Shown here: positions 36 to 67 of the stretch, one piece after another | Position numbering within the stretch: position 1 is the stretch's first letter | Layout of the letters: the number at the start of each line of letters is the position of its first letter | Assembly (NCBI RefSeq): GCF_003334255.1 | Contig: NZ_QOWU01000158.1 | From: Escherichia coli | GTDB taxonomy: Bacteria > Pseudomonadota > Gammaproteobacteria > Enterobacterales > Enterobacteriaceae | Direction: 5' to 3' (one strand) | Length of the DNA stretch: 1,453 nt | Notes under the pieces: generated by a model | What the model was told of the DNA's origin: nothing | The model's database searches: none | What the model saw: the letters and a program-made list of their open reading frames with translations, nothing else | Position numbers and translations under genes: made by a program

Positions 36-67
36 AAAAAGACCTTACGCAGCTCCGGGAGCTTCGT
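36..67 (-). terminator. Possible intrinsic terminator or RNA 3'-end hairpin (imperfect GC-rich hairpin followed by a U5 tract)
   Basis: Minus strand 67..47 ACGAAGCTCCCGGAGCTGCGT folds as an 8-bp stem (one A-G mismatch) with loop CCCGG, followed after 6 nt (AAGGTC) by TTTTT at 40..36. The gap between stem and U-tract is longer than in canonical terminators. Confidence 0.2.

What the first reader, a model, noticed from the sequence alone, without database searches (positions are those of the whole stretch)
36..67. Hairpin plus U-tract that may mark the 3' end of the transposase or guide-RNA transcript
An imperfect GC-rich hairpin (67..47) followed by UUUUU (40..36) on the minus strand lies about 20 bp before the right-end inverted repeat. 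It would define an RNA 3' end inside the element and prevent read-through into host DNA. The 6-nt gap between stem and U-tract is atypical, so confidence is low.
Basis: seen in the sequence. Interest (0 to 1): 0.25.

Follow-up and report, generated by a model that had tools for sequence, protein, structure and literature searches.

The report
Conserved hairpin behind ISEc45 guide RNA
The small hairpin near the right end of the RNA-guided insertion sequence ISEc45 is real and is kept at a fixed position in related elements, but the run of U's after it is not, so it most likely marks the 3' boundary of the element's guide (bridge) RNA and is not a classical transcription terminator.

Summary
The window is ISEc45, an IS1111-group (IS110-family) insertion sequence. 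Its DEDD transposase is on the minus strand (259..1392), and its bridge/seek RNA lies in the 3' non-coding region.

Alone they are not beyond chance: 14% of shuffled windows hold a similar site, the stem is weak (-7.5 kcal/mol), and the terminator scan does not call it.

Comparison with about 35 relatives changes the picture. The stem is kept through compensatory changes in the closest relatives. An alignment-free profile shows a hairpin whose 3' arm ends 22-23 nt before the right-end -35 box across the family (z up to 5.7). The U-tract is specific to the ISEc45 lineage. Only 7 of 28 lineages have a T-run of four or more there.

The hairpin lies outside the bridge-RNA core (257->87), whose target and donor guides I mapped by co-variation with flanks and ends.

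Best reading (confidence 0.45): a 3'-terminal stem-loop of the bridge-RNA transcript, marking the border with the cis-acting right end. In ISEc45 it is at most a weak, non-canonical terminator. No 3'-end mapping data exist. Interest is modest.

The parts
47..67 (-). The finding's hairpin: ACG-A-AGCUC / CCG loop / GAGCU-G-CGU. Proposed 3'-terminal stem-loop of the bridge-RNA transcript.
   Evidence: -7.5 kcal/mol. Stem kept with changes on both sides at 3 of 7 pairs in 6 relatives. Family-wide position-locked pairing signal at -31..-23 and -44..-35 relative to the -35 box.
36..40 (-). U5 tract, 6 nt after the stem. Specific to the ISEc45 lineage.
   Evidence: T5 or T6 in ISEc45 variants, gap 5 or 6 nt. 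Absent in the closest relatives. Only T at -14/-13 is favoured family-wide.
25..46 (-). 22-nt spacer between hairpin and -35 box. Its length is fixed and its sequence is semi-conserved.
   Evidence: 22-23 nt in the gamma-proteobacterial lineages. Preferred bases are G at -21..-19, AA at -17/-16, TT at -14/-13, G at -10, C at -8, T at -7, AA at -5/-4.
19..24 (-). TTGACA, the -35 half of the predicted junction promoter that forms when the element circularises.
   Evidence: Conserved in nearly all relatives. Across the joined ends it is followed by a 17-nt spacer, then TGG-TATGAC. This is inferred by analogy with ISEc11 and IS621 (PMC11187229, PMC11208160).
6..19 (-). Right end: subterminal inverted repeat AAAGGTCAT (19->11), tip AAG (10->8), core AG (7->6, shared with the target).
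   Evidence: Comparison of empty and occupied sites. Coordinates.
68..86 (-). Variable linker between the bridge-RNA outer stem and the hairpin.
   Evidence: Length and sequence differ among relatives.
87..257 (-). Bridge/seek RNA core, closed by an outer stem (257->241 with 102->87). It contains the target-binding and donor-binding loops.
   Evidence: RNAalifold on 25 relatives: outer stem, basal stem and distal hairpins all show compensatory changes. MFE fold.
164..233 (-). Target-binding loop: basal stem 233->223 with 174->164; 5'-side guide AAAAGAAUU (220->212); distal hairpin 211->185; 3'-side guide CAUAUAG (184->178).
   Evidence: Guides co-vary with the right and left flanks in relatives. 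Coordinates.
119..153 (-). Donor-binding loop: 5'-side candidate guide (153->147), distal hairpin GGGGCUAAAAUCCCC (146->132), 3'-side guide AUAAGAG (129->123), which copies the right-end tip.
   Evidence: AUAAGAG, AUGAGAG, AUAUCAG and AUAACAG co-vary with the right-end tip. ACCAU and AUCAU co-vary with left ends ATGGT and ATGAT in several lineages. The 5'-side guide is uncertain in ISEc45 itself.
259..1392 (-). Transposase gene, 377 aa, DEDD/RuvC-like type of the IS110 family.
   Evidence: Pfam DEDD_Tnp_IS110 and Transposase_20. RefSeq name 'IS110-like element ISEc45 family transposase'.
1393..1453 (-). Left end: core AG (1453->1452), extended -10 TGG-TATGAC (1450->1442), inverted repeat ATGACCTTT (1446->1438), 5'-UTR hairpin (1432->1413), ribosome-binding site.

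Best explanation
The 21-nt imperfect hairpin at 67->47 forms in the transposase-sense transcript as the last structured module of the ISEc45 bridge (seek) RNA precursor. It lies 20 nt after the outer stem that closes the guide-bearing core and abuts the roughly 40-bp cis-acting right end (spacer, -35 box, inverted repeat, tip).

Its most likely job is to fix the 3' end of the RNA. It could do this by stopping 3'-to-5' exonucleases that trim the read-through transcript, by pausing or weakly terminating RNA polymerase, or both. Either way, transcription that starts at the junction promoter of the circular intermediate yields a defined RNA and does not run on through the promoter or the element's end.

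The U5 tract is a lineage-specific extension of a TT pair that is favoured family-wide in the spacer. It may give the ISEc45 hairpin some terminator activity, particularly if the three extra weak pairs form, but it is not part of the conserved design.

Shown here: the hairpin exists; it is kept by compensatory change; it is locked in position relative to the right end; it lies outside all four guide segments; the U-tract is not conserved.

Inferred: that it acts as RNA, and that it determines the RNA 3' end.
For: Identity of the element and location of its RNA: and the Durrant 2024 supplement.

Hairpin conservation:
- Unaided MAFFT alignment of 6 relatives (71-86% transposase identity) has 83% of cells paired, against 14-48% for slid partners.
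- 3 of 7 pairs change on both sides, and the covariation score is reached by 1 of 500 shuffles.
- Loop lengths of 3, 6, 6 and 10 nt argue against a spaced protein-binding palindrome.

Family-wide evidence without an alignment: in 28 lineage representatives, 3'-arm probability is 0.43-0.67 at -31..-23 against 0.24-0.33 in shuffles (z 3.0-5.7), with a 5'-arm peak at -44..-35. In ISEc45, -23 is window base 47.

Placement: the bridge-RNA core and its guides lie upstream, within 257->87.

Experimental parallel: for ISEc11, RNA supplied in trans and ending at bp 1397 is functional, and cargo is tolerated at that point (PMC11187229). That point is 21 nt before the ISEc11 -35-like box. So the RNA module ends at the same distance from the -35 box.

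Decay in a dead copy: a truncated relic copy has lost the stem (L113).
Against: - No RNA 3'-end data exist for ISEc45 or any relative.
- Stability of the tail region is not exceptional in single sequences (z mostly -1 to +1).
- The sense strand does not fold significantly better than its complement (17 vs 10 lineages, p 0.13-0.24), so an RNA rather than DNA role is not proven.
- The hairpin is locked to the DNA end and not to the RNA core, because the linker is variable. A pure RNA-protection model does not predict this.
- ISEc11, the only mapped relative I examined, has no hairpin ending at the corresponding boundary.
- The covariation test rests on only six sequences.
Confidence: 0.45

Rival explanations
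1. It is a genuine Rho-independent terminator. The hairpin plus U5 releases RNA polymerase at about base 36-40, ending the transposase/bridge-RNA transcript inside the element.
For: - Hairpin and U5 are present.
- The full-NCR fold extends the stem so that the U-tract abuts it.
- The T-tract is kept as T5 or T6 in all ISEc45 variants sampled.
- Seven of 28 lineages, mostly alpha-proteobacterial, have a strong GC stem directly followed by TTTT (L016, L017, L012, L032).
- T content after the hairpin is mildly raised family-wide (2.34 vs 1.71 per 8 nt).
Against: - The core stem is only -7.5 kcal/mol with an internal mismatch, and the gap is 5-6 nt.
- The scan does not call it.
- The heuristic score is -76 (core) or -22 (extended), against +22 to +38 for three textbook terminators. 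The formula and control sequences were recalled from memory, and my parse of rrnB T1 scored -25.
- The closest relatives keep the hairpin but have no U-tract.
- ISEc45 variants are over 90% identical, so their T-tract conservation says little.
Confidence: 0.2
2. The hairpin is a structural handle of the ribonucleoprotein, a third module of the bridge RNA. The recombinase binds it, or it is needed to position the RNA relative to the right-end DNA during circle formation or integration.
For: - Structure is conserved while sequence varies.
- Spacing to the right end is fixed, and the adjacent 22-nt spacer is semi-conserved.
- The long forms of IS1111-group seekRNAs (154 nt in ISEc11) extend beyond the target-binding part (PMC11187229).
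Against: - It lies outside the outer stem that closes both guide loops.
- A variable linker separates it from the core.
- No such module is described for IS621 or IS1111-group RNAs in the papers read.
- ISEc11 has no equivalent hairpin at the same place.
Confidence: 0.15
3. It is a DNA-level feature of the right end or of the junction promoter. One option is a palindrome bound by a host or element protein. Another is that the T-tract is part of an UP-like element, lying about -52 to -48 from the predicted start site.
For: - The hairpin is locked to the -35 box and not to the RNA core.
- There is no significant strand asymmetry.
- The spacer fills the region where the RNA polymerase alpha subunit contacts DNA (own knowledge).
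- TT at -14/-13 and AA at -5/-4 and -17/-16 recur in the family.
Against: - Loop length varies from 3 to 10 nt, and stem sequences are unrelated between lineages whose transposases are 60-80% identical. This fits base pairing, not recognition by a dimeric protein.
- The spacer is not notably A/T-rich.
- The promoter itself is only predicted.
Confidence: 0.1
4. It has no function. It is a chance palindrome and T-run in a non-coding stretch.
For: 14% of shuffled windows hold such a site. Single-sequence z-scores are unremarkable.
Against: Compensatory changes and the family-wide position-locked signal with z up to 5.7 are not expected by chance. This rival stays viable only for the U-tract.
Confidence: 0.1

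Closest known systems
Rho-independent (intrinsic) transcription terminators of bacteria
   Same: A stem-loop in the nascent RNA at the end of a transcription unit, with a run of U downstream in ISEc45. In some relatives (Rhizobiales, L017) the equivalent hairpin is GC-rich and directly followed by UUUU.
   Different: The stem is weak and mismatched, the U-tract is 5-6 nt away, and the U-tract is absent in the closest relatives. The scan does not call it.
seekRNA / bridge RNA of IS1111-group elements (ISEc11, ISPa11, ISKpn4; Siddiquee 2024, Durrant 2024)
   Same: [quoted passage not shown] It is thought to be cut from a long transcript driven by the junction promoter. The RNA module ends about 21-22 nt before the -35 box in both ISEc11 and ISEc45.
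   Different: No 3' stem-loop or terminator is described for those RNAs in the papers read, and ISEc11 has no hairpin ending at the boundary. The ISEc45 transposase is only about 15-25% identical to them.
IS621 bridge RNA (IS110 group)
   Same: Two internal loops that read target and donor, and the same CT/AG core dinucleotide.
   Different: IS621 encodes its RNA upstream of the recombinase in the left end. There the 3' side of the RNA runs into the coding region, so no end-proximal hairpin of this kind applies.
3' stem-loops that protect bacterial RNAs from exonucleases (REP-type stabilisers, sRNA terminal hairpins; own knowledge)
   Same: A hairpin without an obligatory U-tract at the 3' edge of a processed RNA. 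It is conserved as structure, not as sequence.
   Different: Protection has not been tested here. The fixed spacing to a DNA site is not a feature of such elements.

Membership tests
Rho-independent terminator | Stable, G+C-rich stem-loop in the transcript | tested here: inconclusive
   8 pairs, 5 of them G-C, one A.G mismatch, -7.5 kcal/mol. This is at the weak end of the range, well below the -13 to -20 of the control terminators.
Rho-independent terminator | U-rich tract starting within 0-2 nt of the stem | tested here: not met
   The gap is 6 nt (5 in variants). It becomes adjacent only if three weak extra pairs form across a 3x3 internal loop. The scan, which allows a 0-2 nt gap, does not call it.
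Rho-independent terminator | Hairpin and U-tract conserved together in homologous positions | tested here: not met
   The hairpin is conserved. A T-run of four or more occurs in 7 of 28 lineages and in none of the closest relatives.
Rho-independent terminator | RNA 3' ends map to the U-tract; termination in vitro | not testable with these tools
   No transcript data are available, and no paper in the library reports ISEc45 transcripts.
IS1111-group element with bridge/seek RNA | DEDD (RuvC-like) transposase with the IS110-family C-terminal domain | tested here: met
   PF01548 (3.6e-15) and PF02371 (6.9e-23).
IS1111-group element with bridge/seek RNA | Subterminal inverted repeats and a long non-coding region downstream of the transposase gene | tested here: met
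   9-bp repeat at 11-19 and 1438-1446. 251 nt of non-coding DNA lie downstream of the gene, against 59 nt upstream. Listed as 'RE / IS1111' by Durrant 2024.
IS1111-group element with bridge/seek RNA | RNA segments matching both sides of the target and both element ends, co-varying with them | tested here: met
   The 5'-side donor guide is weak in ISEc45 itself.
IS1111-group element with bridge/seek RNA | RNA detected and bound to the transposase; required for transposition | not testable with these tools
   Shown for ISEc11, ISPa11, ISKpn4 and ISPst6 only (PMC11187229).
Junction (Pjunc) promoter of circularising IS | -35 box in one end and -10 box in the other, at a correct spacing once the ends are joined | tested here: met
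   TTGACA, 17 nt, TGG-TATGAC on the in-silico junction. The -35 box is conserved in relatives. Activity was not tested.

The most novel reading that the evidence does not exclude
The position-locked hairpin, together with the fixed 22-nt semi-conserved spacer, is a previously undescribed functional module of this branch of RNA-guided IS elements. It would couple bridge-RNA 3'-end formation to the right end and junction promoter, for example by insulating the promoter of the circular intermediate from run-around transcription or by docking the RNA next to the donor end. It would then be required for efficient transposition.
Probability: 0.25. Interest if true: 0.5.

Novelty: new member of a known kind. 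Interest (0 to 1): 0.3.

Why it matters
IS110/IS1111 recombinases and their bridge RNAs are being developed as programmable genome-editing tools. For the IS1111 group, the 3' limit of the natural RNA and the way its end is made are not described in the papers I could read.

A structure-conserved hairpin at a fixed distance from the right end gives a concrete, testable boundary for the RNA gene of the ISEc45 family. It also gives a candidate element to include or omit when the RNA is expressed in trans.

The finding also shows that a hairpin followed by a T-run can mislead. Only the hairpin is under selection here. As a terminator prediction for one IS copy, the matter is ordinary.

Tried and rejected
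- Rfam search of the window: no family matched, even at E <= 1.
- Single-sequence thermodynamic z-scores of the tail region in 30 relatives: uninformative, mostly -1 to +1.
- Family-wide MAFFT/RNAalifold: it recovers the bridge-RNA core but cannot align the tail, so it says nothing about the hairpin. I replaced it with a profile anchored on the -35 box.
- Viral contig scan for the right-end motif: no match.
- Metagenome scan: mostly ISEc45 itself, with few new lineages.
- The idea that AAGGUC (46->41) is a third copy of the inverted-repeat core: relatives do not share it, so I treat it as chance.
- Strand-asymmetry test for an RNA versus DNA role: inconclusive.
- Looking for mapped seekRNA coordinates in the Siddiquee 2024 supplement: only figure legends are held. 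The accession they used for ISEc11 is not in the collections, so I took ISEc11 from a plasmid instead.
- ISPpu9 paper: its Ssr9 terminator is not a comparable case.
- Terminator on the opposite strand: the plus strand has A5 before the stem and no U-run after it.

Full report
**What the window is.** The 1453-base window matches, at 100% identity, copies annotated 'IS110-like element ISEc45 family transposase' in many E. coli chromosomes and plasmids. In the listed hits each copy lies inside an IS66-family transposase gene. The minus strand carries a 377-aa ORF (259..1392) with the Pfam domains DEDD_Tnp_IS110 and Transposase_20. Comparing an occupied site with an empty one gives the ends. The target reads ...GGAAATAAAAA-CT-TTATGTTC..., and CT is present at both junctions. 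The element therefore spans window 8..1453 (equally 6..1451) with an ambiguous CT core, which is AG in transposase sense. Nine-base subterminal inverted repeats lie at 11-19 and 1438-1446. Durrant et al. 2024 list ISEc45 as IS1111 group with the predicted bridge RNA in the right end (supplement). Neither that paper nor Siddiquee et al. 2024 describes ISEc45 further or mentions a terminator.

**The observation.** RNAfold reproduces the stem. The core is -7.5 kcal/mol. In the fold of the whole non-coding region, three weak pairs (73-71 with 43-41) extend it to the U-tract, giving -9.2 kcal/mol. The site is not exceptional on its own:
- The 43-nt fold has z = -1.2.
- The consensus terminator scan does not report it.
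- A relaxed search (at least 7 pairs, at most one mismatch, T5 within 8 nt) finds at least one site in 14% of 1000 dinucleotide shuffles of the window.
- A d'Aubenton-Carafa-type score gives -76 for the core and -22 for the extended stem, against +22 to +38 for three textbook terminators. I recalled the formula and control sequences from memory, and my parse of rrnB T1 scored -25, so this is only a rough guide.

**Context: the bridge RNA.** I collected about 35 non-redundant relatives with 30-93% transposase identity from species-representative genomes, metagenomes, protein-anchored contigs and plasmids. Their 3' non-coding regions share one architecture. RNAalifold on 25 of them recovers four helices, all with compensatory changes:
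- an outer stem (ISEc45 257->241 with 102->87);
- a basal stem (233->223 with 174->164);
- a distal hairpin of a first internal loop;
- a second distal hairpin (146->132).

The single-stranded segments behave as guides:
- The 3' side of loop 1 (CAUAUAG, 184->178) has the same sense as the left flank plus core. It matches at 6-7 of 7 positions in nearly all lineages and changes with the flank (CAGCCAG with AGCC-AG, CAGGUAG with GGT-AG).
- The 5' side of loop 1 (AAAAGAAUU, 220->212) pairs with the core plus right flank over 7-9 nt (AAAAA with TTTTT, AAGAA with TTCTT).
- After the second hairpin, AUAAGAG (129->123) copies the right-end tip and co-varies with it (AUGAGAG, AUAUCAG and AUAACAG in other lineages).
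- Before the second hairpin, ACCAU or AUCAU tracks left ends ATGGT or ATGAT in several lineages. This guide is unclear in ISEc45 itself.

The functional core of the RNA therefore lies within 257->87. The finding's hairpin is a separate unit 20 nt further 3'.

**Is the hairpin conserved?** In the closest relatives it is homologous. An unaided MAFFT alignment of six sequences puts both arms in register. For the 7-pair core:
- 83% of cells are paired, against 14-48% when partners are slid.
- Three pairs change on both sides (A-U/G-C, G-C/A-U, C-G/U-A).
- The A.G mismatch becomes C-G in two sequences.
- The covariation score is reached by 1 of 500 shuffles.

Loops are 3, 6, 6 and 10 nt. More distant lineages have unrelated stems at the same place, for example GAGUGCCC/GGGCAUUC, GAAUGAC/GUCAUUC and AAGGAACG/CGUUCUUU. 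Because this stretch cannot be aligned family-wide, I anchored 28 lineage representatives on the -35 hexamer and averaged base-pairing probabilities. The probability of being a 3' arm is 0.43-0.67 at -31..-23, against 0.24-0.33 in dinucleotide shuffles (z 3.0-5.7). The 5'-arm signal peaks at -44..-35 (z up to 3.3). In ISEc45, -23 is base 47, the last base of the reported stem. Single-sequence stability z-scores did not show this. A truncated relic copy has lost the stem.

**Is the U-tract conserved?** No. In the same fixed 22-nt spacer the closest relatives read AGGATAAGTACGGGCGAAATCC, AGGACAAGTTCGGCCGAAATAT or CAGGCTTAGTCTGGTTAAATAT. Family-wide, T is preferred only at -14/-13, and the ISEc45 U5 is that pair extended by substitutions. 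T-runs of four or more occur in 7 of 28 lineages. These are mostly alpha-proteobacterial, and there they follow a strong GC stem directly and look terminator-like. T content in the 8 nt after the best hairpin is only mildly raised (2.34 vs 1.71 expected). ISEc45 variants keep T5 or T6 with a 5- or 6-nt gap, but they are too similar to each other to be informative.

**What lies downstream.** TTGACA (24->19) is conserved in nearly all relatives. On the in-silico circle junction it is followed by 17 nt and then TGG-TATGAC, an extended -10, in the left end. This matches the junction promoters shown experimentally for ISEc11 and IS621 (PMC11187229, PMC11208160). For ISEc45 it is a prediction. The hairpin thus ends at about -58 of that promoter. 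In ISEc11, the 3' limit of the functional RNA supplied in trans, which is also the tolerated cargo site (bp 1397 of 1443), lies 21 nt before its -35-like TTGCAA. The RNA module therefore ends at the same distance from the -35 box. ISEc11 has no hairpin ending there; its nearest one ends at bp 1374.

**Interpretation.** The conserved object is a hairpin at the border between the RNA-coding part and the cis-acting right end. Its function cannot depend on a U-tract. I therefore favour a 3'-terminal stem-loop of the bridge-RNA precursor that fixes the RNA 3' end, by blocking exonucleases, by pausing or weakly terminating polymerase, or both (confidence 0.45). In ISEc45 the U5 may add some termination. 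The rivals are:
- a true intrinsic terminator (0.2);
- a ribonucleoprotein handle (0.15);
- a DNA-level element of the end or promoter (0.1);
- chance (0.1; viable only for the U-tract).

Two results limit confidence. The sense strand does not fold significantly better than its complement (17 vs 10 lineages, p 0.13-0.24). And the hairpin is locked to the DNA end while the linker to the RNA core is variable, which a simple protection model does not predict.

**Comparison and novelty.** The site fails two defining tests of an intrinsic terminator: U-tract adjacency, and joint conservation of hairpin and U-tract. I do not file it as one. It may still work like a weak terminator. The element itself meets the sequence-level criteria of an IS1111-group bridge-RNA element. 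I found no description of a 3' hairpin module for such RNAs in the library. Its likely role, an RNA 3'-end stem-loop, is a known kind of thing, so I rate it 'new member of a known kind' with interest 0.3.

Noticed in passing
window 1-7 and 1452-1453, with flanks in L001 2950-3000 and 4454-4500; also L042, L044, L110, L111: ISEc45 and every relative with readable flanks sits antisense inside an IS66-family transposase gene (tnpC), between the codons for K-N and F/W/Y of a conserved motif. The bridge-RNA guides match this site. The whole family appears to be an RNA-guided parasite of IS66 elements.
   Followed up: partly
L114 (NZ_CP024262.1), equivalent to window 178-222: An ISEc45 variant with 95% identity in the non-coding region has different target guides (CACGUAG for CAUAUAG, CGAAAAAGAAUU for CGUAAAAGAAUU) and lies in a different IS66 variant. 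It looks like natural retargeting.
   Followed up: partly
window 1413-1432, minus strand: A small hairpin CUCAC-N10-GUGGG sits in the predicted 5' untranslated region just upstream of the ribosome-binding site. It is kept as CUCAC/GUGAG in the 86% relative L041.
   Followed up: no
window 25-46, minus strand: The 22-nt spacer between hairpin and -35 box has a fixed length and a weak family-wide sequence pattern (G at -21..-19, AA at -17/-16, TT at -14/-13, G at -10, C at -8, T at -7, AA at -5/-4). Its function is unknown.
   Followed up: partly
window 19-24 joined to 1442-1450 (circle junction): Joining the ends creates TTGACA, 17 nt, TGG-TATGAC: a near-consensus -35 box with an extended -10. 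The window's promoter scan cannot see it because the two halves are at opposite ends.
   Followed up: partly
L113 (NZ_CP010126.1) 301-382: An 82-bp relic of the ISEc45 right end with no transposase gene. The hairpin has decayed (GGAGCTGCGT to GGATGTGCTT) and T5 has become T4.
   Followed up: no
L004 1092 onward; proteins P0011-P0030: In many E. coli records the ISEc45 transposase gene is followed directly by an IS3-family orfB-like sequence (Pfam PF13276), giving fused or partial annotations. The bridge-RNA region is missing in these copies.
   Followed up: no
window 656-673, minus strand: The only terminator-like site reported by the consensus scan lies inside the transposase coding sequence. 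One site was found and 1.1 were expected, so it is probably chance.
   Followed up: no
window 82-87, minus strand: GUUCUU just after the outer stem matches the target's plus strand 4 nt from the core. It is kept in L044 and L046, altered to GUUCUC in L107, and absent in L041. It could be a further guide-like contact or shared ancestry.
   Followed up: no
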